Origin: Botryllus schlosseri
Lineage: Eukaryota
NCBI GenBank assembly: GCA_051294905.1
Contig: CM119372.1
Location: forward strand, 40,488,001-40,552,000
DNA length: 64,000 nucleotides
Direction of reading: 5' to 3'
The notes beneath the pieces were generated by a model. That model made no database searches, was not told the origin of the DNA, and saw only the letters and a list, made by a program, of their open reading frames with translations. The translations under genes were made by a program, and so were the position numbers. Positions 1-53,500 of this stretch are shown here, one piece after another; position 1 is the first letter of the stretch, and every line of letters starts with the position of its first letter.

Positions 1-3000
1 ATGTAAGATGATTGTATTACGGGCGCTTAAGTAGTTCGTGAGTCGTATGTACATTCGCTGGACACGGCGCAATCTTCGGAAGCCAGCAATCGAACCAATC
101 TTATCTACAGACCCTGAACAAACTATCATTGGCCAGCTGATAATACCGTCTGTTTAGTTCCGTTCCTGCGTAATGTGAAATATCGAATCACGATGCAGGC
201 CAAAACTCACATATTATTTCTCAAAATTATCTAGCAAGCTCGGCTACTAGGAAGCCTGCTTATCAAATACGACTAATTGAAAAATCCGAGCGCACTCGGA
301 GCATTTTGTAATGCGGACTCACCTTAACACAATCAATATGTAAGATGATTGTATTACGGGCGCTTAAGTAGTTTGTGAGTCGTATGTACATTTGCTGGAC
401 ACGGCGCAATCTTCGAAAGCCAGCAATCGAACCAATCTTATCTACAGACCCTGAACAAACCATCATTGGCCAGCTGATAATACCGTCTGTTTCGGTCCGT
501 TCCTGCGTAATGTGAAATATCGAATCACGATGCAGGCCAAAACTCACATTTTATTTCTCAAAATTATCTAGCAAGCTCGGCTACAAGGAAGCCTGTTTAT
601 CAGATACGACTAATTGAAAAATCCGAGCGCACTCGGAGCATTTTGTAATGCGGACTCACCTTAACACAATCAATATGTAAGATGATTGTATTACGGGCGC
701 TTAAGTAGTTTGTGAGTCGTATGTACATTTGCTGGACACGGCGCAATCTTCGAAAGCCAGAAATCGATCCAATCTAATCTACAGAACCTGAACAAACCAT
801 CATTGGCCAGCTGATAATACCGTCTGTTTAGATCGGTTCTTGCGTAATGTGAAAAATCGAATCACGATGCAGGCCAAAACTAACATTTTATTTCTCAAAA
901 TTATCTAGCAAGCTCGGCTACTAGGAAGCCTGCTTATCAGATACGACTAATTGAAAAATCCGAGTGCACTCGGAGCATTTTGTAATGCGGACTCACCTTA
1001 ACACAATCAATATGTAAGATGATGGTATCACGGGCGCTTAAGTAGTTTGTGAGTCGTATGTACATTTGCTGGACACGGCGCAATCTTCGGAAGCCAGCAA
1101 TCGAACCAATCTTATCTACAGAACCTGAACAAACCATCATTGGCCAGCTGAAAACACCGTATTTTAGGTCGGTTCTTGCGTAATGTGAAATATCGAATCA
1201 CGATGCAGGCCAAAACTCACATATTATTTCTCAAAATTATCTAGCAAGCTCGGCCACTAGGAAGCCTGCTTATCAGATACGAATAATTGAAAAATCCGAG
1301 CGCACTCGGAACATTTTGTAATGCGGACTCACCTTAACACAATCAATATGTAAGATGATTGTATTACGGGCGCTTAAGTAGTTCGTGAGTCGTATGTACA
1401 TTCGCTGGACACGGCGCAATCTTCGGAAGCCAGCAATCGAACCAATCTTATCTACAGACCCTTAACAAACTATCATTGGCCAGCTGATAATACCGTCTGT
1501 TTAGTTCCGTTCCTGCGTAATGTGAAATATCGAATCACGATGCAGGCCAAAACTCACATATTATTTCTCAAATTTATCTAGCATGCTCGGCTCCTAGGAA
1601 GCCTGCTTATCAGGTACGACAAATTGAGAAATCCGAGCGCACCAGGAGCATTTTGTATTGCGGACTCACCTTAACACAATCAATATGTAAGGTGATTGTA
1701 TTACGGGCACTTGAGTAGTTCGTGAGTCGTATGTCCTTTTACTGGACACGGCGCAATCTTAGGAAGCCAGCAATCGAACCAATCTTATCTACAGACCCTG
1801 AACAAACCATCATTGGCCAGCTGATAACACCGTCTGTTTAGATCGGTTCTTGCGTAATGTGAAAAATCGAATCACGATGCAGGCCAAAACTCACATTTTA
1901 TTTCTCAAAATTATCTAGCAAGCTCGGCTACTAGGAAGCCTGTTTATCAGATACGACTAATTGAAAAATCCGAGCGCACTCGGAGCATTTTGTAATGCGG
2001 ACTCACCTTAACACAATCAATATGTAAGATGATGGTATCACGGGCGCTTAAGTAGTTTGTGAGTCGTATGTACATTTGCTGGACACGGCGCAATCTTCGG
2101 AAGCCAGCAATCGAACCAATCTTATCTACAGACCCTGAACAAACTATCATTGGCCAGCTGATAATACCGTCTGTTTCGGTCCGTTCCTGCGTAATGTGAA
2201 ATATCGAATCACGATGCAGGCCAAAACTCACATATAATTTCTCAAAATTATCTAGCATGCTCGGCTCCTAGGAAGCCTGCTTATCAGGTACGACAAATTG
2301 AAAAATCCGAGCGCACTCGGAGCATTTTGTAATGCGGACTCACCTTAACACAATCAATATGTAAGATGATTGTATTACGGGCGCTTGATTAGTTCGTGAG
2401 TCGTATGTACATTCGCTGGACACGGCGCAATCTTCGAAAGCCAGAAATCGATCCAATCTAATCTACAGAACCTGAACAAACCATCATTGGCCAGCTGATA
2501 ATACCGTCTGTTTAGATCGGTTCTTGCGTAATGTGAAAAATCGAATCACGATGCAGGCCAAAACTCACATATTATTTCTCAAAATTATCTAGCAAGCTCG
2601 GCTCCTAGGAAGCCTGCTTATCAGGTACGACAAATTGAAAAATCCGAGGGCACCAGGAGCATTTTGTAATGCGGACTCGCCTTAAGACAATCAATATGTA
2701 AGGTGATTGTATTACGGGCGCTTAAGTAGTTCGTGAGTCGTATGTACATTCGCTGGACACGGCGCAATCTTCGGAAGCCAGCAATCGAACCAATCTTATC
2801 TACAGACCCTGAACAAACTATCGTTGGCCAGCTGATAATACCGTCTGTTTAGTTCCGTTCCTGCGTAATGTAAAATATAGAATCACGATGCAGGCCAAAA
2901 CTCACAGATTATTTCTCAAAATTATCTAGCAAGCTCGGCTACTAGAAAGCCTGCTTATCAGATACGACTAATTGAAAAATCCGAGCGCACTCGGAGCATT

Positions 3001-4875
3001 TTGTAATGCGGACTCACCTTAAGACAATCAATATGTAAGGTGATTGTATTACGGGCGCTTGATTAGTTCTTGAGTCGTATGTCCTTTTACTGGACACGAC
3101 GCAATCTTCGGAAGCCAGCAATCGAACCAATCTTATCTACAGACCGTGAACAAACCATCATTGGCCAGCTGATAATACCGTCTGTTTATATCGGTTCTTG
3201 CGTAATGTGAAATATCGAATCACGATGCAGGCCAAAACTCACATATTATTTCTCAAAATTATCTAGCAAGCTCGGCTCCTAGGAAGCCTGCTTATCAGGT
3301 ACGACAAATTGAAAAATCCGAGGGCACAAGGAGCATTTTGTAATGCGGACTCGCCTTAAGACAATCAATATGTAAGGTGATTGTATTACGGGCGCTTAAG
3401 TAGTTCGTGAGTCGTATGTACATTCGCTGGACACGGCGCAATCTTCGAAAGCCAGCAATCGAACCAATCTTATCTAGAGTCCGTGAACAAACCATCATTG
3501 GCCAGCTGATAATACCGTCTGTTTAGGTCCGTTCCTGCGTAATGTGAAATATCGAATCACGATGCAGGCCAAAACTCACATATTATTTCTCAAAATTATC
3601 TAGCAAGCTCGGCTACTAGGAAGCCTGCTTATCAAATACGACTAATTGAAAAATCCGAGCGCACTCGGAGCATTTTGTAATGCGGACTCACCTTAACACA
3701 ATCAATATGTAGGATGATTGTATTACGGGCGCTCAAGTAGTTCGTGAGTCGTATGTACATTGGGTGGACACGGCGCAATCTTCGGAAGCCAGCAATCGAA
3801 CCAATCTTATCTACAGACCCTTAACAAACTATCATTGGCCAGCTGATAATACCGTCTGTTTAGTTCCGTTCCTGCGTAAGGTGAAATATCGAATCACGAT
3901 GCAGGCCAAAACTCACAGATTATTTCTCAAAATTATCTAGCAAGCTCGGCTCCTAGGAAGCCTGCTTATCAGGTACGACAAATTGAAAAATCCGAGGGCA
4001 CCAGGAGCATTTTGTAATGCGGACTCGTCTTAAGACAATCAATATGTAAGGTGATTGTATTACGGGCGCTTAAGTAGTTCGTGAGTCGTATGTACATTCG
4101 CTGGACACGGCGCAATCTTCGAAAGCCAGCAATCGAACCAATCTTATCTACAGAACCTGAACAAACCATCATTGGCCAGCTGAAAACACCGTATTTTAGG
4201 TCGGTTCTTGCGTAATGGTAAAAATCGAATCACGTTGCAGGCCAAAACTCACATATTATTTCTCAAAATTATCTAGCAAGCTCGGCTACTAGGAAGCCTG
4301 CATATCAGATACGAATAATTGAAAAATCCGAGCGCACTCGGAGCATTTTGTAATGCGGACTCACCTTAACACAATCAATATGTAAGGTGATTGTATTACG
4401 GGCGCTTGATTAGTACTTGAGTCGTATGTCCTTTTACTGGACACGGCGCAATCTTCGGAAGCCAGCAATCGAACCAATCTTATCTAGAGTCCGTGAACAA
4501 ACCTTCATTGGCCAGCTGATAATACCGTCTGTTTAGGTCCGTTCCTGCGTAATGTGAAATATCGAATCACGATGCAGGCCATAACTCACATATTATTTCT
4601 CAAAATTATCTAGCAAGCTCGGCTACTAGGAAGCCTGCTTATCAAATACGACTAATTGAAAAATCCGAGCGCACTCGGAGCATTTTTTAATGCGGACTCA
4701 CCTTAAAACAATCAATATGTAAGATGATTGCATTACGGGCGCTTAAGTAGTTCGTGAGTCGTATGTACATTCGCTGGACACGGCGCAATCTTCGGAAGCC
4801 AGCAATCGAACCAATCTTATCTACAGACCCTGAACAAACTATCATTGGCCAGCTGATAATACCGTCTGTTTAGAT
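1..4875 (+). repeat. Satellite DNA array, 337-bp monomer, forward orientation, ~14.5 copies (continues beyond the left edge)
   Basis: Head-to-tail recurrence of TCAGATACGACTAATTGAAAAATCCGAGCGCACTCGGAGCATTTTGTAATGCGG...CTAGCAAGCTCGGCTACTAGGAAGCCTGCTTA every 337 bp. Repeated ORF ends in the track are spaced by multiples of 337 (e.g. 263, 937; 3295, 3969), with occasional 336-bp units. Confidence 0.98.
4868..4875 (+). other. Left target-site duplication GTTTAGAT (8 bp; 9 bp if the C at 4876 is counted)
   Basis: Identical to 8618-8625; removing the insert and one copy restores an intact monomer. Confidence 0.92.
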
Positions 4876-4933
4876 CACTGAGCTATATAAACACTGGAGT
4901 GCGCTACTCGCGATATTTACGTTGTCACTAGAA

Positions 4934-5145
4934 ACAGTTGCATTGTGGGGGATAGGCTGGACGATTTAGTGCAGGAGCTTATGGAAAAACGTCCAGTTCT
5001 AAAATATATTTGATTCGTATTGGGTTTGTAGTATTTTATACGAATGGAGCTTTGAATGAATAATCATCGTAACATTCAGGATTTGTTTCAGCCCAATATC
5101 TCGTGTTTATATCTGTGTTATCGGTGTATTTCGACATGTCGAAGA
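4934..5145 (+). repeat. Left subterminal inverted repeat of the transposon (212-bp core; degenerate extension out to ~4915)
   Basis: ACAGTTGCATTGTGGGGGATAGGCTGGACG...TTTCGACATGTCGAAGA is the reverse complement of 8351-8562 with 5 mismatches by manual alignment. Confidence 0.95.
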
Positions 5146-6187
5146 TATAAGTGGTTTCGACTGTTCGTGGTAAAATAAGGTTGTCTATGTGTCATCGTAT
5201 GTATTTTTTTGTGGTTATATTCCTGATGTAGATTGCTTTACTCGTTGTATCCAGCATATTTTACGTGTACAGAAATAACCAAGCTGTCAAAAGATGTATA
5301 ATGCCAGTTCAGTTATCTTTCAGATATATGTTTCTATAGGAAGTAAAAGCATCTACGATTGTCAGCTTGAAGTTATTATCGGAGCGTGCCTCGGAATTAC
5401 CTATCCTGGATTCAAAATCTTCATACTTCAATGGAGCTGATGTGAATGCTATAACTGCCAGCTGTGAATATTGCTGATGGAGAAAATTCAGCATCATGGG
5501 ACATATCAAAAGGCACTGCTGAAATCAACTGAATGCCATTGTGGTTATTCTACGTATTTATTGGTTCAGCGTATTTAAATAAATCCAAAAAAGAGAAAGT
5601 AAAGATATGTCTGCTATGTGTGGCGATGGGGTAGTGATTTCTGTAGAAGTGACTGAATGAGTTCATTGAATGAGAGAAACAAGAAATGCATGGGTCCTTA
5701 TTCAGATGTAGCTAGAATTGCCCAATTCACAGTGAAATTGGGGCTATGTTGGTTGTAACAGCAATCTGTGCACTTTGGGAGTTCATAATAAATATTAATT
5801 TTATCGAATCAAAACGGCACAAGATACAATCTAAACGGCGTACATGTATTTTATCATAATTACACCTATAGCTACCCATATGCGTGTGTACATGAAGCTT
5901 GGCTCGTTTTGCACTTTCATGAAACCAGAAATTAGTTTGGATTCAAAACTAACTGGAGATGTGAACTGTGCTGCCTCGTCACACGAAATACCGCGCTGTA
6001 CTGTCTCGTACCAAAATGCTGAACTCTCGTTTTCAGAAACACCAGCTTCGGTTATGAGAAACGAATTTTTCTATTAAAATAACAACATAAAAAATAAAAC
6101 CAGAAATAAATTAATTGTTATCGACTTTACGTCGCCTTCGGCGTAATTAACGGTGATCTGAAAGTCAAATGTGGGATAAGTTAGGGC

Positions 6188-6338
6188 TTAATATCTGCGA
6201 ACGAGGTATAATAAACGAACCGATTCTGATCTTAGTTCCAACTTAATGGAATTTCTTCTCTTCTTACGCGGCACAGGCACAGTCACATTGAAGGCCACCC
6301 CACTACGGGTCCTACGACGACGACGTCGTTTTTGGGCA
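6188..6338 (-). CDS. Possible terminal exon of the THAP gene: basic, NLS-like peptide (AQKRRRRRRTRSGVAFNVTVPVPRKKRRNSIK...)
   Basis: Candidate acceptor TTCATTTATCTTGAACAG| at 6339, phase-compatible with the exon 2 donor; part of ORF 6188..6391(-). No homology evidence, and intervening exons cannot be excluded. Confidence 0.3.
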
Positions 6339-6456
6339 CTGTTCAAGATAAATGAACTAACATATGAGAAATTGTTCACTTGAAGACACATTGATCGACA
6401 TACCTTGATGTCACGACAACGTTTTTATACCAAAATGCGTATAAAATAGTAAAGAA

Positions 6457-6661
6457 AGTGTGTTAGCCGGTGTCTTCTACGGGTTTGAAGTATGTGTTGG
6501 CTAGACTTGCTCCCTTTTTTGTTTTCTTATTATCTGTAAAGATACCAAAAACTGTGAGTACAGAATTACAATAATGAAAATTCTACGGCATACGAAGAAA
6601 GTGGCCTCACCTCATTCAGTGGGTTAGCCGGTGTCTTCCGTGGGTTTGAAGTAAGAGTTGG
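6457..6661 (+). repeat. Pair of 44-bp imperfect direct repeats inside the transposon (6457-6500 and 6618-6661)
   Basis: AGTGTGTTAGCCGGTGTCTTCTACGGGTTTGAAGTATGTGTTGG vs AGTGGGTTAGCCGGTGTCTTCCGTGGGTTTGAAGTAAGAGTTGG; 38/44 identical, offset 161 bp. Confidence 0.85.
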
Positions 6662-7318
6662 GTATGTAAATATTCTCTCTGGCGACGCAGGGTTGGCTTT
6701 ACAGCTTAACGATGGTCGATTCCAAAACCTTTGAATGGAAAAGAAAACAGCCACGAGCAAGTATGTAATAAAGCGATAGTTACATCTGTGTACCAGAGCA
6801 CATATCATATAAATTATATATTGACAGTTAACCGCTAAAGGTATTGGACACTGAATGCAGCCTAATGATAAAAGGATGACAGATGTAACAAAATTGTTAT
6901 CCACCTTCTCAACGACAACATCGGAAAGCGGTAACGAATTGTCATTTTCTTTTTCAACGGAAGGGTGAAGGTAATTCAACAATTGAATCACCTTGAGCCT
7001 CATTATTGAACATATGGCAAAGGTGTCAATCGCCGTAACAGAACCAGCTTAATGAAATAACATTAATGCCCAATCTGTGCTAGTAGAGAATATATTTTAA
7101 TGGAAGCCTATAAAATACGCATGATCGAAAAAACACCTGAATATGTTCTATAGATAGAACCAACTCTTGGATTTTTTTTAAACATAAAGATTTGAGCTAT
7201 CCACATAATTTATATTATCATGACATTACGTCTCTGGAAACACAACTATAAGCCCTAGCAATGACCAGAGGTGGTCAGTTAAGAAGTACTTCTACTTAAA
7301 GTGGTTTTGCTCACTCAC

Positions 7319-7465
7319 GTCCTTAAACGAATTCTCCCGCCAACACGGTAAATATCACTTTCTGAAAAATGATCAGAACAGACGACCGACGATCTTGCTG
7401 GCTCCCAGTCTTTTCTTCTAATACATTCTATCCATCTTTCTTTCAGGGAATCATTGGTAGGAAAG
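7319..7465 (-). CDS. THAP zinc-finger protein, coding exon 2 (R-FPTNDSLKERWIECIRRKDWEPARSSVVCSDHFSESDIYRVGGRIRLR-T)
   Basis: Acceptor TTCTCTACAACACAG| at 7466, phase-compatible with exon 1 (CG|C = Arg). Supplies the FP, W and CxxHF motifs of the THAP C2CH fold. The 3' end is either a donor AC|GTGAGT (GT at 7318-7317) or an in-frame TGA at 7317-7315. Absent from the ORF track. Confidence 0.88.
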
Positions 7466-8199
7466 CTGTGTTGTAGAGAACATTGTATCAGTTCACAAGT
7501 AATTCTATGATACGAAGCACACCAAATTGACCATTCTTTGTTATGAACGATGATAAAAGTAGCAGGAACATATGTGAAATTATCTTGTTTGATTTAGATA
7601 TATCTGTTACTTTCTACCCCTGAAGGATAAACTATTAGGTAACCTTTTAAATCCAAAGCCAAAGGTTAACCTAAAAAAAACATCTTACAAGACAAATCGA
7701 ACGTCTCGCACGCACAAAGCTATAATGAACTCGACCACGGAATTAGCAATTTGAACTTTAGTGTGAGCATCTGGCACCAGAAATATAGAGTTATTACTCA
7801 ACTATGCTGGACAAAACCGTGTGGCCCTCAATTATACCTTTCCTTCTAGTCCTACCTCCAACCTTCACGACAATTTTAAGCAAGGATTGAGTACTAAGCT
7901 AGTTATTGGCTGAACTGCCCATACAGAATACAAACAGTGACCTGGCTGGTCATGCTATTACAGGTATACTGATGAACTGACATGGTGCTGAGACTGCTGA
8001 TATAGTCTGCTCTGATCATACCAACATCATTATACTTGTGACAAAATGTTCTGGTATAATGACACTTTAACATGGCCTATTCATTAATGCTGTGGCTTAT
8101 CTGGACATTGATTAACTGTGATGGTCAGGAAATATTAAAAATAGAAACTGATTCTTCAAAGATAGTCTTGCTGCCCTGCATATTCTGCCATTCACTCAC
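7466..8199 (-). other. Spliceosomal GT-AG intron 1 of the THAP gene (734 bp)
   Basis: GTGAGT donor and pyrimidine-rich CAG acceptor; splicing creates the FHRFP motif typical of THAP domains. Confidence 0.82.
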
Positions 8200-8360
8200 C
8201 GGTGAAATGTTCTTGGATGCCGACGCTTTACCAAAGACTCTTCATCGCTACTACCATCGCTATTACTTCTCATATATGACTCCGTGGATATCTTTTTCTG
8301 CCTTTTACTGCACCAACAGGCGCAACAAACGCTACCACCAAAACGAGATGTCTTCGACAT
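8200..8360 (-). CDS. THAP zinc-finger protein, coding exon 1 (MSKTSRFGGSVCCACWCSKRQKK...KRRHPRTFH-R)
   Basis: ATG at 8360. N-terminal CxxxxC (CCACWC) and TFHR motif. Ends at a consensus donor CG|GTGAGT (GT at 8199-8198), phase 2. Corresponds to the 3' part of ORF 8196..8393(-). Confidence 0.85.
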
Positions 8361-8562
8361 GTCGAAATACACAGATAACACAGATATAAACACGAGATAT
8401 TGGGCTGAAACAAATCCTGAATGTTACGATGATTATTCATTCAAAGCTCCATTCGTATAAAATACTACAAACCCAATACGAATCAAATATATTTTAAAAC
8501 TGGACGTTTTTCCATAAGCGCCTGTACTAAGTCGTCCAGCCTATCCCCCACAATGCAACTGT
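8351..8562 (-). repeat. Right subterminal inverted repeat of the transposon (212-bp core; degenerate extension out to ~8582); contains the THAP start codon and its upstream region
   Basis: TCTTCGACATGTCGAAATACAC...CCTATCCCCCACAATGCAACTGT is the reverse complement of 4934-5145. Confidence 0.95.
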
Positions 8563-8617
8563 AACATGGTGACAACGCAAATTTGCTTAGCCGGAGATGG
8601 CAGTAGTTCGGGGCTTG

Positions 8618-8625
8618 GTTTAGAT
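8618..8625 (+). other. Right target-site duplication GTTTAGAT
   Basis: Identical to 4868-4875 and followed directly by the satellite continuation CCGTTCCTGCGTAATG. Confidence 0.92.
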
Positions 8626-47600: not shown

Positions 47601-50494
47601 GGACACGGCGCAATCTTCGAAAGCCAGAAATCGATCCAATCTAATCTACAGAACCTGAACAAACCATCATTGGCCAGCTGATAATACCGTCTGTTTAGAT
47701 CGGTTCTTGCGTAATGTGAAAAATCGAATCACGATGCAGGCCAAAACTCACATATTATTTCTCAAAATTATCTAGCAAGCTCGGCTCCTAGGAAGCCTGC
47801 TTATCAGGTACGACAAATTGAAAAATCCGAGGGCACCAGGAGCATTTTGTAATGCGGACTGGCCTTAAGACAATCAATATGTAAGGTGATTGTATTACGG
47901 GCGCTTAAGTAGTTCGTGAGTCGTATGTACATTCGCTGGACACGGCGCAATCTTCGGAAGCCAGCAATCGAACCAATCTTATCTACAGACCCTGAACAAA
48001 CTATCATTGGCCAGCTGATAATACCGTCTGTTTAGTTCCGTTCATGCGTAATGTGAAATATCGAATCACGATGCAGGCCAAAACTCACAGATTATTTCTC
48101 AAAATTATCTAGCAAGCTCGGCTACTAGGAAGCCTGCTTATCAGATACGACTAATTGAAAAATCCGAGCGCACTCGGAGCATTTTGTAATGCGGACTCAC
48201 CTTAAGACAATCAATATGTAAGGTGATTGTATTACGGGCGCTTGATTAGTTCTTGAGTCGTATGTCCTTTTACTGGACACGACGCAATCTTCGGAAGCCA
48301 GCAATCGAACCAATCTAATCTACAGACCGTGAACAAACCATCATTGGCCAGCTGATAATACCGTCTGTTTAGATCGGTTCTTGCGTAATGTGAAATATCG
48401 AATCACGATGCAGGCCAAAACTCACATATTATTTCTCAAAATTATCTAGCAAGCTCGGCACCTAGGAAGCCTGCTTATCAGGTACGACAAATTGAAAAAT
48501 CCGAGGGCACCAGGAGCATTTTGTAATGCGGACTCGCCTTAAGACAATCAATATGTAAGGTGATTGTATTACGGGCGCTTAAGTAGTTCGTGAGTCGTAT
48601 GTACATTCGCTGGACACGGCGCAATCTTCGAAAGCCAGCAATCGAACCAATCTTATCTACAGAACCTGAACAAACCATCATTGGCCAGCTGATAATACCG
48701 TCTGTTTAGGTCCGTTCCTGCGTAATGTGAAATATCGAATCACGATGCAGGCCAAAACTCACATATAATTTCTCAAAATTATCTAGCAAGCTCGGCTACT
48801 AGGAAGCCTGCTTATCAAATATGACTAATTGAAAAATCCGAGCGCACTCGGAGCATTTTGTAATGCGGACTCACCTTAACACAATCAATATGTAGGATGA
48901 TTGTATTACGGGCGCTTAAGTAGTTCGTGAGTCGTATGTACATTCGCTGGACACGGCGCAATCTTCGGAAGCCAGCAATCGAACAAATCTTATCTACAGA
49001 CCCTGAACAAACTATCATTGGCCAGCTGATAATACCGTCTGTTTAGGTCCGTTCCTGCGTAATGTGAAATATCGAATCACGATGCAGGCCAAAACTCACA
49101 TATTATTTCTCAAAATTATCTAGCATGCTCGGCTCCTAGGAAGCCTGCTTATCAGGTACGACAAATTGAAAAATCCAAGCGCACCAGGAGCATTTTGTAA
49201 TGCGCACTCACCTTAACACAATCAATATGAAAGGTGTTGTATTACGGGCGCTTAAGTAGTTCGTGAGTCGTATGTCCTTTTACTGGACACGGCGCAATCT
49301 TCGGAAGCTACCAATCGAACCAATCTTATCTACAGACCCTGAACAAACCATCATTGGCCAGCTGATAATACCGTCTGTTTAGATCGGTTCTTGCGTAATG
49401 TGAAAAATCGAATCACGATGCAGGCCAAAACTCACATTTTATTTCTCAAAATTATCTAGCAAGCTCGGCTACTAGGAAGCCTGCTTATCAGATACGACTA
49501 ATTGAAAAATCCGAGCGCACTCGAAGCATTTTGTAATGCGGACTCACCTTAACACAATCAATATGTAAGATGATTGTATTACGGGCGCTTAAGTAGTTTG
49601 TGAGTCGTATGTACATTCGCTGGACACGGCGCAACCTTCGGAAGCCAGCAATCGAACCAATCTTATCTACAGACCCTGAACAAACTATCATTGGCCAGCT
49701 GATAATACCGTCTGTTTAGGTCCGTTCCTGCGTAATGTGAAATATCGAATCACGATGCAGGCCAAAACTCACATATAAAATCTCAAAATTATCTAGCATG
49801 CTCGGCTCCTAGGAAGCCTGCTTATCAGGTACGACAAATTGAAAAATCCGAGCGCACCAGGAGCATTTTGTAATGCGGACTCACCTTAACACAATCAATA
49901 TGTAAGGTGATTGTATTACGGGCGCTTAAGTAGTTCGTGAGTCGTATGTACACTCGCTCGACACGGCGCAATCTTCTAAAGCCAGCAATCGATCCAATCT
50001 TATCTACAGACCCTGAACAAACTATCATTGGCCAGCTGATAATACCGTCTGTTTAGGTCCGTTCTTGCGTAATGTGAAAAATCTAATCACGATGCAGGCT
50101 ATAACTCACATATTATTTCTCAATATTATCTAGCAAGCTCGGCTACTAGGAAGCCTGCTTCTCAGATACGACTAATTGAAAAATCAGAATGCACCAGGAG
50201 CATTTTGTAATGCAGACTCGCCTTAAGACAATCAATATGTAAGGTGATTGTATTACGGGCGCTTAAGTAGTTCGTGAGTCGTATGTACATTCGCTGGACA
50301 CGGCGCAATCTTCGGAAGCCAGCAATCGAACCAATCTTATCTACAGACCCTGAACAAACTATCATTGGCCAGCTGATAATACCGTCTGTTTTTGTCCGTT
50401 CCTGCGTAATGTGAAATATCGAATCACGATGCAGGCCAAAACTCACAGATTATTTCTCAAAATTATCTAGCAAGCTCGGCTACTAGGAAGCCTG
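8618..50494 (+). repeat. Satellite DNA array, 337-bp monomer, forward orientation, ~124 copies, with multi-monomer block duplications
   Basis: Uninterrupted 336/337-bp periodicity. Rare variants recur at offsets of 1011, 1347, 2021, 2358, 2695-2696, 3033, 3703, 4717 and 5050-5053 bp (3 to 15 monomers). Confidence 0.98.
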
Positions 50495-50500
50495 GTAGCT
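50486..50500. other. Satellite orientation-switch (inversion) junction with 6-bp filler GTAGCT at 50495-50500
   Basis: The forward monomer ends ...CTCGGCTACTAGGAAGCCTG (50494), then GTAGCT, then the reverse-complement monomer begins TAGTAGCCGAGCTTGCTAG (50501). The repeated ORFs flip from - to + strand here. Confidence 0.97.
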
Positions 50501-53500
50501 TAGTAGCCGAGCTTGCTAGATAATTTTGAGAAATAAAATGTGAGTTTTGGCCTGCATCGTGATTCGATTTTTCACATTACGCAAGAACCGATCTAAACAG
50601 ACGGTGTTATCAGATGGCCAATGATGGTTTGTTCAGGGTCTGTAGATAAGATTGGTTCGATTGCTGGCTTCCTAAGATTGCGCCGTATCCAGTAAAAGGA
50701 CATACGACTCACCAACTACTCAAGTGCCCGTAATACAATCACCTTACATATTGATTGTGTTAAGGTGAGTCCGCAATACAAAATGCTCCTGGTGCGCTCG
50801 GATTTCTCAATTTGTCGTACCTGATAAGCAGGCTTCCTAGGAGCCGAGCATGCTAGATAATTTTGAGAAATAATATGTGAGTTTTGGCCTGCATCGTGAT
50901 TCGATATTTCACATTACGCAGGAACGGACCTAAACAGACGGTATTATCAGCTGGCCAATGATAGTTTGTTCAGGGTCTGTAGATAAGATTGGTTCGATTG
51001 CTGGCTTCCGAAGATTGCGCCGTGTCCAGCGAATGTACATACGACTCACGAACTACTTAAGCGCCCGTAATGCAATCATCTTACATATTGATTGTGTTAA
51101 GGTGAGTCCGCATTAAAAAATGCTCCGAGTGCGCTCGGATTTTTCAATTAGTCGTATTTGATAAGCAGGCTTCCTAGTAGCCGAGCTTGCTAGATAATTT
51201 TGAGAAATAATATGTGAGTTATGGCCTGCATCGTGATTCGATATTTCACATTACGCAGGAACGGACCTAAACAGACGGTATTATCAGCTGGCCAATGAAG
51301 GTTTGTTCACGGACTCTAGATAAGATTGGTTCGATTGCTGGCTTCCGAAGATTGCGCCGTGCCCAGTAAAAGGACATACGACTCAAGTACTAATCAAGCG
51401 CCCGTAATACAATCACCTTACATATTGATTGTGTTAAGGTGAGTCCGCATTACAAAATGCTCCGAGTGCGCTCGGATTTTTCAATTAGTCGTATCTGATA
51501 TGCAGGCTTCCTAGTAGCCGAGCTTGCTAGATAATTTTGAGAAATAATATGTGAGTTTTGGCCTGCAACGTGATTCGATTTTTAACATTACGCAAGAACC
51601 GACCTAAAATACGGTGTTTTCAGCTGGCCAATGATGGTTTGTTCAGGTTCTGTAGATAAGATTGGTTCGATTGCTGGCTTTCGAAGATTGCGCCGTGTCC
51701 AGCGAATGTACATACGACTCACGAACTACTTAAGCGCCCGTAATACAATCACCTTACATATTGATTGTCTTAAGACGAGTCCGCATTACAAAATGCTCCT
51801 GGTGCCCTCGGATTTTTCAATTTGTCGTACCTGATAAGCAGGCTTCCTAGGAGCCGAGCTTGCTAGATAATTTTGAGAAATAATATGTGAGTTTTGGCCT
51901 GCATCGTGATTCGATATTTCACATTACGCAAGAACCGATCTAAACAGACGGTATTATCAGCTGGCCAATGATGGTTTGTTCACGGTCTGTAGATAAGATT
52001 GGTTCGATTGCTGGCTTCCGAAGATTGCGCCGTGTCCAGTAAAAGGACATACGACTCAAGAACTAATCAAGCGCCCGTAATACAATCATCTTAAATATTG
52101 ATTGTCTTAAGGTGAGTCCGCATTACAAAATGCTCCGAGTGCGCTCGGATTTTTCAATTAGTCGTATCTGATAAGCAGGCTTCCTAGTAGCCGAGCTTGC
52201 TAGATAATTTTGAGAAATAATCTGTGAGTTTTGGCCTGCATCGTGATTCGATATTTCACATTACGCAGGAACGGACAAAAACAGACGGTATTATCAGCTG
52301 GCCAATGATAGTTTGTTCAGGGTCTGTAGATAAGATTGGTTCGATTGCTGGCTTCCGAAGATTGCGCCGTGTCCAGCAAATGTACATACGACTCACAAAC
52401 TACTTAAGCGCCCGTGATACCATCATCTTACATATTGATTGTGTTAAGGTGAGTCCGCATTACAAAATGCTCCGAGTGCGCTCGGATTTTTCAATTAGTC
52501 GTATCTGATAAACAGGCTTCCTAGTAGCCGAGCTTGCTAGATAATTTTGAGAAATAAAATGTGAGTTTTGGCCTGCATCGTGATTCGATTTTTCACATTA
52601 CGCAAGAACCGATCTAAACAGACGGTGTTATCAGCTGGCCAATGATGGTTTGTTCAGGGTCTGTAGATAAGATTGGTTCGATTGCTGGCTTCCTAAGATT
52701 GCGCCGTGTCCAGTAAAAGGACATACGACTCACGAACTACTCAAGTGCCCGTAATACAATCACCTTACATATTGATTGTGTTAAGGTGAGTCCGCAATAC
52801 AAAATGCTCCTGGTGCGCTCGGATTTCTCAATTTGTCGTACCTGATAAGCAGGCTTCCTAGGAGCCGAGCATGCTAGATAATTTTGAGAAATAATATGTG
52901 AGTTTTGGCCTGCATCGTGATTCGATATTTCACATTACGCAGGAACGGACCTAAACAGACGGTATTATCAGCTGGCCAATGATAGTTTGTTCAGGGTCTG
53001 TAGATAAGATTGGTTCGATTGCTGGCTTCCGAAGATTGCGCCGTGTCCAGCGAATGTACATACGACTCACGAACTACTTAAGCGCCCGTAATGCAATCAT
53101 CTTACATATTGATTGTGTTAAGGTGAGTCCGCATTAAAAAATGCTCCGAGTGCGCTCGGATTATTCAATTAGTCGTATTTGATAAGCAGGCTTCCTAGTA
53201 GCCGAGCTTGCTAGATAATTTTGAGAAATAATATGTGAGTTATGGCCTGCATCGTGATTCGATATTTCACATTACGCAGGAACGGACCTAAACAGACGGT
53301 ATTATCAGCTGGCCAATGAAGGTTTGTTCACGGACTCTAGATAAGATTGGTTCGATTGCTGGCTTCCGAAGATTGCGCCGTGTCCAGTAAAAGGACATAC
53401 GACTCACGAACTACTTAAGCGCCCGTAATACAACACCTTACATATTGATTGTGTTAAGGTGAGTGCTCATTACAAAATGCTCCTGGTGCGCTTGGATTTT

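What the first reader, a model, noticed from the sequence alone, without database searches (positions are those of the whole stretch)
4876..8617. THAP-encoding transposon with 'inside-out' ends: unrelated termini but long, near-identical subterminal inverted repeats
Seen: 8-bp TSD and CA...TG ends, but the outer ends share only CA (left CACTGAGCTATATAAACACTGG; right end reverse-complemented CAAGCCCCGAACTACTGCCATC). Similarity starts only ~40 bp (left) and ~35 bp (right) inside, is patchy for ~20 bp, then runs 207/212. Four of the five mismatches fall in the outer ~70 bp, so identity rises inward. Established: P-superfamily elements (P, Galileo) have THAP-domain transposases and 7-8 bp TSDs, and classical cut-and-paste elements conserve their extreme tips best. 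Inference: this may be an undescribed P-like family with asymmetric cleavage ends in which synapsis relies on internal binding sites. The clean TSD argues that it moved with these ends rather than decaying in place.
Basis: partly seen in the sequence, partly recalled or inferred. Interest (0 to 1): 0.8.

Follow-up and report, generated by a model that had tools for sequence, protein, structure and literature searches.

The report
P transposon with two unlike ends
This is a deleted copy of a recently mobile animal cut-and-paste transposon of the P-element group whose two ends have become unrelated, and the scars it appears to leave when it jumps out keep only one end, suggesting that its enzyme cuts the two ends in different ways.

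Summary
In detail: 3,742-bp element, 8-bp TSD inside a 337-bp satellite, unrelated tips, 207/212 subterminal repeat. It is an internal-deletion copy of a P-superfamily (THAP9-type) transposon. Full-length ~7-kb copies have the same tips, a 912-aa THAP-DDE-GTP-domain transposase and a spliced transcript; 21 of 22 paired copies have exact 8-bp TSDs. The long repeat is not the key: two sister families move with unlike tips and no long repeat, which is a late inverted copy of the 5' leader. Relatives from other organisms carry the left-type tip at both ends, so the right (5') tip is the derived one. New result: 104 examined orphan sites read TSD + 13-19 nt of left tip + partial TSD, like P excision footprints, but 0 of 104 keep 5 nt or more of the right tip (Drosophila: 33 of 36 keep both), and right-tip orphans are at background. 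Best reading (0.6): a P-type 17-19-nt staggered cut at one end and a near-flush cut at the other. Main rival (0.28): both ends staggered, right overhang lost in repair. New variant of a known kind; Repbase/Dfam could not be checked.

The parts
4868..4875 (+). Left 8-bp target-site duplication (GTTTAGAT)
   Evidence: compared with empty satellite monomers
4876..8617 (-). Non-autonomous P-superfamily element (family 1); lacks nt 1301-4609 of the 7,046-bp full-length copy on C13
   Evidence: 99.2% over both retained parts
4876..4910 (+). Left tip (3' end relative to the gene): ancestral P-type end. First 29 nt identical in families 1-3; found at both ends in relatives; its first 13-19 nt are what the footprints keep
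4911..4933 (+). Patchy transition zone holding a ~12-bp subterminal motif that family 2 also has at both ends
4934..5148 (+). Left long subterminal repeat: inverted copy of the 5' leader, ending in ATG TCG AAG ATA TAA (ATG at 5136, stop after four codons); absent in families 2 and 3
5149..7315 (-). 3' region; no Pfam match in the five longer frames tested; imperfect 47-nt direct repeat at 6457-6503 / 6618-6664
7318..7465 (-). Transposase exon 2 (THAP domain), cut by the internal deletion at about 7318
7466..8199 (-). Predicted intron 1 (GT..AG; joint not seen in reads)
   Evidence: prediction; one search shows no joint
8200..8360 (-). Transposase exon 1 (ATG at 8360; THAP cysteine motif, with YG changed to CW in this copy)
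8348..8562 (-). Right long subterminal repeat = 5' leader of the transposase gene plus its first 13 coding bases
8587..8617 (-). Right tip (5' end relative to the gene): derived end, only CAAGC shared with family 3; almost never left in footprints
8618..8625 (+). Right 8-bp target-site duplication
1..4873 (+). 337-bp satellite array hosting the insertion (continues 8618-50494, inverted from 50501)

Best explanation
The element is a deletion derivative of a recently active P-superfamily transposon and is moved in trans by a ~912-aa THAP / HTH / RNase H (DDE) / GTP-binding transposase encoded by full-length copies (shown: domains, catalytic and GTP residues, intact frames, intron 2 spliced; trans-mobilisation inferred). 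The ancestor had one P-type tip at both ends. In this genome's lineage the 5' (right) tip was replaced while the 3' (left) tip stayed almost invariant (shown by end comparison and a quick tree). On excision the left end is cut P-style: the non-transferred strand is nicked 17-19 nt inside, so the donor keeps that tail. The right end is cut at or within a few bases of its tip, so the donor keeps little or nothing of it. End-joining of the left tail to the right-hand TSD gives TSD + 13-19 nt left tip + filler + partial TSD (footprints shown; the nick positions are inferred). The long subterminal repeat is a later inverted duplication of the promoter/5' leader in family 1 and is not needed for transposition (inferred from families 2 and 3).
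For: Classification: Pfam PF05485, PF12017, PF21787, PF21788, PF21789, PF22824; only PDB match is P transposase 6p5a, E 5e-13, with D230, D303, E531 and the eight GTP-site residues named in PMC7776569 aligned to identical residues (my count on the printed alignment). Frames without stops: 5 family-1, 5 family-2 and 1 family-3 copies among 67 matches. Intron 2 (101 nt) spliced in two raw single-cell RNA runs (18 and 23 reads) and absent in the DNA run. Footprints: left 13-mer orphans 586 vs control 5; 105 vs 0 with a 15-nt seed. In 104 fetched sites the tip match is 13-19 nt in 103 and 21 in one. A TSD suffix of 4 nt or more follows within 20 nt in 19 of 37 and 35 of 60 sites, against shuffled means of 3.4 and 5.2. 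0 of 104 have 5 nt or more of right terminus before the TSD start, against 33 of 36 two-sided junctions with a left tail of 13 nt or more in Table 1 of PMC2895639 (my count). Joined left+right footprints: 0 genome-wide. Right-tip orphans at or below control: 61 vs 147, 46 vs 58, 298 vs 323 for family 3. The one site with a left-type tip on both sides (L127) kept both. Symmetric left-type TIRs in two outside lineages (L176/L177/L182 and L200); families 1-3 plus P0001 form one branch, SH-aLRT 100, stem 0.48.
Against: Nick positions were not measured; footprints mix cutting with repair. Two right-tip orphans stop at exactly 13 nt behind target-like 8-mers (L106, L107) and one at 11 nt (L264), which fits a short right overhang, though I estimate about 2-3 such 13-mers by chance. 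A DNA duplex-energy test of fold-back pairing did not separate left (-4.0) from family-1 right (-4.5) at register 17. The Drosophila comparison comes from Rad51-null flies of another species. The 17 vs 19 question is open, and the second sample could not show matches past 19 by design of its pattern. Which family made each footprint is unknown. The tree is the quick one, and the one-clade test did not finish. Only 2 outside families were seen at both ends; 6 others at one end only.
Confidence: 0.6

Rival explanations
1. Both ends are cut with a stagger (about 17 nt left, about 13 nt right), but the right overhang is nearly always removed in repair. The left tail may be protected by transposase or a host protein, or its 3' end (...AAC) anneals to the AC that ends the preferred target while the right tail offers no matching bases.
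For: L106 and L107 stop at 13 nt, just before an ACTG that lies at 14 in the family 1/2 right tip and at 18 in the left tip; L264 has 11 nt. Targets end in AC in 19 of 30 intact insertions. The energy test does not rule out fold-back at the right end.
Against: Right-only scars should then also form through CA microhomology, yet right orphans are at background in three searches. Partial right retention is 0 of 104. Most family-3 right tips lack the core at 14 (they read TCTCG). Junctions fall within or at the start of the right TSD, where a near-flush end would lie.
Confidence: 0.28
2. The one-sided scars are not ordinary excision footprints of these families: they come from aborted single-end integration, or from older related families whose other end I did not find.
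For: No footprint was tied to a known full or empty allele of the same site. TSD-like 8-mers at scars fit the target consensus less well (GT 30 of 97, AC 34 of 97) than intact insertions do (17 and 19 of 30).
Against: The sharp 17-19-nt limit, TSD remnants and templated fillers match P excision repair. No recurrent partner sequence of any kind was seen before the right TSD in the printed sites, and GCTTG, shared by all three families, is missing.
Confidence: 0.07
3. One reading: the tips matter little and synapsis depends on the long, near-identical subterminal repeats.
For: Family 1, which has the long repeat, is the most numerous among the copies seen; Galileo's long TIRs bind THAP (PMC3688188, search listing only).
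Against: Families 2 and 3 have exact TSDs and intact frames without it. The repeat ends inside the coding sequence. Each tip is more conserved across families than the repeat (left 29 of 29 nt vs about 82% for the leader). The repeat may still raise activity.
Confidence: 0.04
4. A chimeric or decayed copy, or a MULE, Zisupton or hAT element that picked up a THAP exon.
For: 8-bp TSD and a GTnnnnAC preference are also hAT-like; long subterminal repeats recall Zisupton (both recalled, not from a call).
Against: Identical tips in 60 of 60 end loci. The THAP exons splice in frame to a P-type transposase inside the same ends in 3 of 3 full-length copies assembled. No 9-bp TSD in 22 pairs.
Confidence: 0.01

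Closest known systems
Drosophila melanogaster P element (PMC7776569, sections 6-8 read; PMC2895639, passages and section 7 with Table 1 read)
   Same: THAP-HTH-RNase H-GTP-binding transposase, CA...TG ends, 8-bp TSD, internally deleted non-autonomous copies, a ~17-nt donor tail left at excision.
   Different: P has 31-bp perfect TIRs and leaves a 17-nt tail at both ends (33 of 36 junctions two-sided by my count). Here the tips share 2 bp and the scars are one-sided (0 of 104 two-sided with the right tip).
D. buzzatii / D. mojavensis P element and the MITE BuT5 (PMC3698922, passages and section 20 read)
   Same: P family with near-absent TIRs (3 bp), so a short terminal match is already known in the superfamily.
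   Different: BuT5/P keep 16-17-bp sub-TIRs within the outer 30-32 bp, taken as equivalent to the P TIR, and have 8- or 9-bp TSDs. Here the outer ~35 bp are unrelated, family 3 has no sub-TIR found, the TSD is strictly 8 bp, and no footprint asymmetry was reported in the parts read.
Zebrafish Pdre2 / THAP9 (PMC10983969, passages read) and invertebrate THAP9-like proteins (Nymphon 54%, Paramuricea 50%, Patella 47%)
   Same: THAP9-type transposase clade; 8-bp TSD; asynchronous end cleavage is reported for Pdre2.
   Different: Pdre2 has matching 13-bp TIRs and 12-bp sub-TIRs. The nearest relatives whose ends I could see (L176/L177/L182, L200) have symmetric left-type TIRs.
Galileo (search listings only)
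   Same: P superfamily with long inverted repeats.
   Different: Galileo's long repeats are terminal and its TSD is 7 bp (PMC3698922); here the long repeat is internal, derived and absent in sister families.

Membership tests
P superfamily | THAP domain plus P-type RNase H DDE transposase with GTP-binding insertion | tested here: met
   Pfam hits in full-length copies; PDB 6p5a alignment with catalytic and GTP residues identical; 912-aa spliced frame. The window copy keeps only the THAP exons.
P superfamily | 7-8-bp TSD | tested here: met
   21 of 22 paired copies exact 8 bp, 0 of 22 9 bp; families 2 and 3 also 8 bp.
P superfamily | CA...TG termini | tested here: met
P element family (canonical) | Matching terminal inverted repeats of about 13-31 bp | tested here: not met
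   2-bp match only; relatives do have them. It is therefore filed as a variant of the superfamily, not as a canonical P element.
P element family (canonical) | 17-nt staggered cut at both ends | tested here: inconclusive
   Indirect only: left tail 13-19 nt, right tail absent in 104 of 104 scars; cleavage itself cannot be measured here.
P element family (canonical) | Fold-back pairing of the transferred strand with the 5' end of the non-transferred strand | tested here: inconclusive
   Left-type tips repeat bases 2-8 after a 16-19-nt spacer; position 7 matches its partner in 8 of 9 families with three different letters (the tips were found by likeness to the left tip, so partly circular). The energy test did not discriminate.
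P element family (canonical) | GTP dependence and internal THAP binding sites | not testable with these tools
   Residues conserved; binding not tested.
MULE/MuDR | 9-11-bp TSD and MULE transposase (recalled) | tested here: not met
   0 of 22 9-bp TSDs; transposase is P-type.
Zisupton/KDZ | KDZ transposase with long subterminal repeats (recalled; PMC3424704 passages give only the name) | tested here: not met
   No such domain; transposase is P-type.
An already named Repbase/Dfam family | Sequence match to a library consensus | not testable with these tools
   No such library is offered.

The most novel reading that the evidence does not exclude
A lineage of P-superfamily transposons has evolved a transpososome that treats its two ends with different chemistry: a GTP-dependent 17-19-nt staggered, fold-back end and a near-flush end with an unrelated sequence, derived from a symmetric ancestor on a long transposase branch. 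It has stamped hundreds of one-sided 13-19-nt scars, many carrying a TATA-like motif, across an animal genome.
Probability: 0.55. Interest if true: 0.85.

Novelty: new variant of a known kind. Interest (0 to 1): 0.72.

Why it matters
[quoted passage not shown] A natural element with one canonical and one unlike end, intact transposases, a spliced transcript and symmetric relatives allows end-swap experiments on exactly that question. It would also show that a eukaryotic cut-and-paste enzyme can lose terminal symmetry and stay mobile. In practice, TIR-based annotation will miss or misplace such elements, and one-sided footprints give a countable record of past excision sites.

Tried and rejected
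Zisupton, MULE and hAT readings: rejected on transposase type and TSD length. A second convergent gene from the left repeat: its ATG stops after four codons, and 5 of 5 longer 3' frames had no Pfam match. Hybrid of two symmetric families in this genome: no symmetric right-right family was seen; only one left-left scar (L127). Left-tip TATA as an inward promoter: reads over the left repeat run inward, but they carry alleles of older copies and extend to about left position 27, outside the expected start, so read-through is likelier. A conserved core at position 14 of all right tips: true for families 1/2 and one family-3 copy, not for most family-3 copies. Fold-back energy test: no discrimination. 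TSD-only end calling in metagenome loci: chance pairs dominate. Two offset errors (window identity; right-allele check) were redone. The right end of the older host copy and of two more family-3 copies was not in the stretches fetched (L252, L254, L256), so concerted evolution of the repeat was not tested directly. No RNA holder on record was listed by the run index. The careful tree and the one-clade test did not finish. No empty-site allele of a footprint was searched. The 2019 structure paper was not held. Our earlier findings: nothing by words or sequence; 8 listed for this genome, none on this element.
Full report
1. Observation. The element spans 4876-8617 and interrupts a 337-bp satellite array. 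The 8-mer GTTTAGAT is duplicated at 4868-4875 and 8618-8625, and neighbouring monomers show the single empty site. The ends share CA and then look unrelated (7 of 20 and 9 of 35 ungapped matches). The core repeat is 207/212 with mismatches at left-end positions 90, 96, 101, 124 and 248. A THAP domain is encoded on the minus strand (PF05485, E 5.6e-09).

2. Family. The window lies in a 495-Mb, 219-contig eukaryotic genome; the named homologues are from animals. Searches with each end scored 40 of 378 and 40 of 307 first-look candidates, all 96-100% identical apart from one partial hit. These are lower bounds, not copy numbers. All 30 left-end and 30 right-end loci fetched start at the same two tips. 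Of 22 copies paired by position, 21 have an exact 8-bp TSD and none a 9-bp one; the exception carries 4 extra terminal bases before an intact TSD. Targets favour GTnnnnAC (GT in 17, AC in 19 of 30).

3. Autonomous partner. Three ~7.0-7.5-kb copies (C13, C2, C10) have the same tips, a TSD and a 799-codon open frame. Predicted splicing of three exons gives a 912-aa protein. Pfam finds the P/THAP9 HTH, RNase H, GTP-binding and C-terminal domains. The only PDB match is Drosophila P transposase (E 5e-13); counting along the printed alignment, D230, D303, E531 and the eight GTP-site residues listed in PMC7776569 face identical residues. Intron 2 (101 nt) is spliced in two raw single-cell RNA runs (18 reads from 7 starts; 23 from 18) and not in the DNA run; intron 1 was not seen. 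The window copy lacks nt 1301-4609 of the C13 copy and has YG changed to CW in the THAP cysteine motif. It is non-autonomous.

4. The long repeat is secondary. Family 2 (91% DNA identity over the transposase stretch searched; 5 intact frames) has the same two tips and an 8-bp TSD in the one copy checked at both ends, but only a ~12-bp subterminal motif. Family 3 (66% protein identity) has the first 29 nt of the left tip identical, a right tip sharing only CAAGC, an exact TSD and no long repeat. 21 intact family-3 right ends were listed among 27 exact hits. In family 1 the repeat covers the 5' leader and the first 13 coding bases. Its two arms are about equally distant from the family-2 leader (82.2 and 81.7%) and differ at fixed sites. 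I infer a late inverted duplication of the promoter region. One copy has a left tip joined to a right-type interior with an intact TSD (L027/L111), which fits recombination between the arms.

5. Which tip is old. A metagenome scan kept the best 80 of 344 related loci. A scan for left-like tips gave 16 hits on two strands against 3-6 per strand in shuffles, so some are chance; L200's 5' tip, too near the contig edge for the scan, was read from the printed sequence. Two families show the left-type tip at both ends (L177/L182 5' with L176 3', 57% identity; L200, 47%); six show it at the one end seen. In a quick tree of 32 proteins, families 1-3 and P0001 form one branch (SH-aLRT 100, stem 0.48) nested among these relatives (midpoint root, careful search and clade test unfinished). 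Symmetric ends are therefore most likely ancestral, and the 5' tip is derived. Left-type tips repeat their bases 2-8 after a 16-19-nt AT-rich spacer, and position 7 matches its partner in 8 of 9 families with G, T or C. This recalls the fold-back helix of the P transpososome, but the selection was partly circular and an energy test did not separate left from right.

6. Footprints. The left 19-mer occurs 889 times with up to one mismatch (control 0), more than long left ends explain. Left 13-mers not continuing as the family-1 element number 586 (control 5); with a 15-nt seed and a purine at position 20, 105 (control 0). I fetched 38 of the first 100 rows, leaving out copies inside amplified host repeats and two tRNA-like hits, and later dropped one family-3 end. 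I fetched 67 further rows from C3-C16, again leaving out host-repeat copies and one family-3 end; L121 was parsed at a second scar 40 bp away. In these 104 sites the match is 13-19 nt in 103 (13:7, 14:4, 15:14, 16:10, 17:18, 18:24, 19:26) and 21 in one. The second sample cannot exceed 19 by design; in the first, 1 of 6 sites reaching 19 went on. A suffix of the upstream 8-mer of 4 nt or more follows within 20 nt in 19 of 37 and 35 of 60 sites (shuffled means 3.4 and 5.2, maxima 10.3 and 13.4), often with short templated repeats. This is the form of P excision junctions (PMC2895639 Table 1). Matches at 18 and 19 exceed chance even when the TSD cannot explain them (21 of 36, 10 of 21), but Drosophila junctions also add A or AC after 17, so I give 17-19.

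7. The asymmetry. None of the 104 sites has 5 nt or more of the right terminus before the TSD start; one has GCTTG later, after the TSD remnant. A genome-wide pattern for 12 nt of left tip joined within 30 nt to 9 nt of right tip found 0. Right-tip orphans are at or under their controls: 61 vs 147, 46 vs 58 (left equivalent 413 vs 68, mostly one amplified host repeat) and 298 vs 323. In the Drosophila table, 33 of 36 junctions with a left tail of 13 nt or more keep at least 5 nt of the right tail (my count; Rad51-null flies, so only a guide). The one site with a left-type tip on both sides kept both (L127). Against a flush cut: L106 and L107 hold 13 nt, and L264 11 nt, of right tip behind target-like 8-mers.

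8. Mechanism. Shown: family, tips, TSD, transposase, intron-2 splicing, one-sided scars. From established P biology: the donor keeps the tail cut from the non-transferred strand. Inferred: a 17-19-nt stagger on the left and a near-flush cut on the right (0.6); or a short right overhang that repair removes (0.28); or scars of another origin (0.07).

9. Novelty. Short TIRs are known in the superfamily (3 bp in the D. buzzatii P element and BuT5), and P ends differ in binding-site spacing. I found no report of unrelated tips with one-sided footprints in 10 full-text searches. Those cover open-licence papers only, not Repbase, Dfam or most subscription journals. Papers seen: PMC7776569 (outline, sections 6-8), PMC3698922 (passages, section 20), PMC10983969 (passages), PMC2895639 (passages, section 7), PMC3424704 (passages); the rest as listings only. 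The 2019 structure paper and the 1997 cleavage paper were not read. No supplements were opened; those of the BuT5 and zebrafish papers (end alignments, excision junctions) may bear on novelty. Zisupton, MULE and hAT features are recalled. Verdict: new variant of a known kind, interest 0.72.

Noticed in passing
window 50494-50501: The 337-bp satellite flips orientation here through a short palindromic junction; no element tip lies there.
   Followed up: partly
L015:1404-1500 and L033:1939-2229: A family-1 copy is inserted inside the left long repeat of an older, ~92% identical copy of the same family.
   Followed up: partly
L027 with L111:5676: Copy with a left tip joined to right-type interior (THAP exon 1) and an intact TSD: a probable interior-flipped isomer made by recombination between the long repeats.
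   Followed up: partly
G000 C1-C3 rows: At least six different host repeats carry a left-only footprint and have since multiplied it to tens or hundreds of copies.
   Followed up: no
window 4876-4894: The left tip holds a TATA-like motif at positions 9-16, and its reverse strand resembles a tRNA A-box (label recalled); two hits look like tRNA or SINE sequence. ARAGORN finds no tRNA in the window.
   Followed up: partly
L046:1672-1883: Single-cell RNA reads over the left repeat run inward (antisense to the transposase), are deeper than the exon reads, and carry alleles of older copies; probably read-through.
   Followed up: partly
L121: Two left-only footprints about 40 bp apart.
   Followed up: no
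G000:C3:11927381-11927436 (again at 11951614-11951669): Two left tips back to back 18 bp apart; by position, a family-3 copy next to a family-1 end, in a duplicated segment.
   Followed up: no
L044 right flank: The last four bases of the element are repeated before an otherwise exact TSD.
   Followed up: no
L024:2170: A further relative with a near-identical right tip and a diverged leader is nested near another copy.
   Followed up: partly
L067:1-916: The 5' end of a family-2 copy is interrupted in exon 1 by sequence that looks like a hAT element end (judged by eye).
   Followed up: no
L063:3165-5929: A palindromic 2.8-kb insertion holding a LINE-like frame (judged by eye) interrupts the transposase of the C6 copy.
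   Followed up: no
alignment A1: Family 1, family 3 and P0001 share 12 changes at positions otherwise at least 80% conserved and four short deletions relative to 33 relatives; candidates for end specificity.
   Followed up: partly
window 6457-6503 and 6618-6664: Imperfect 47-nt direct repeat in the 3' region.
   Followed up: no
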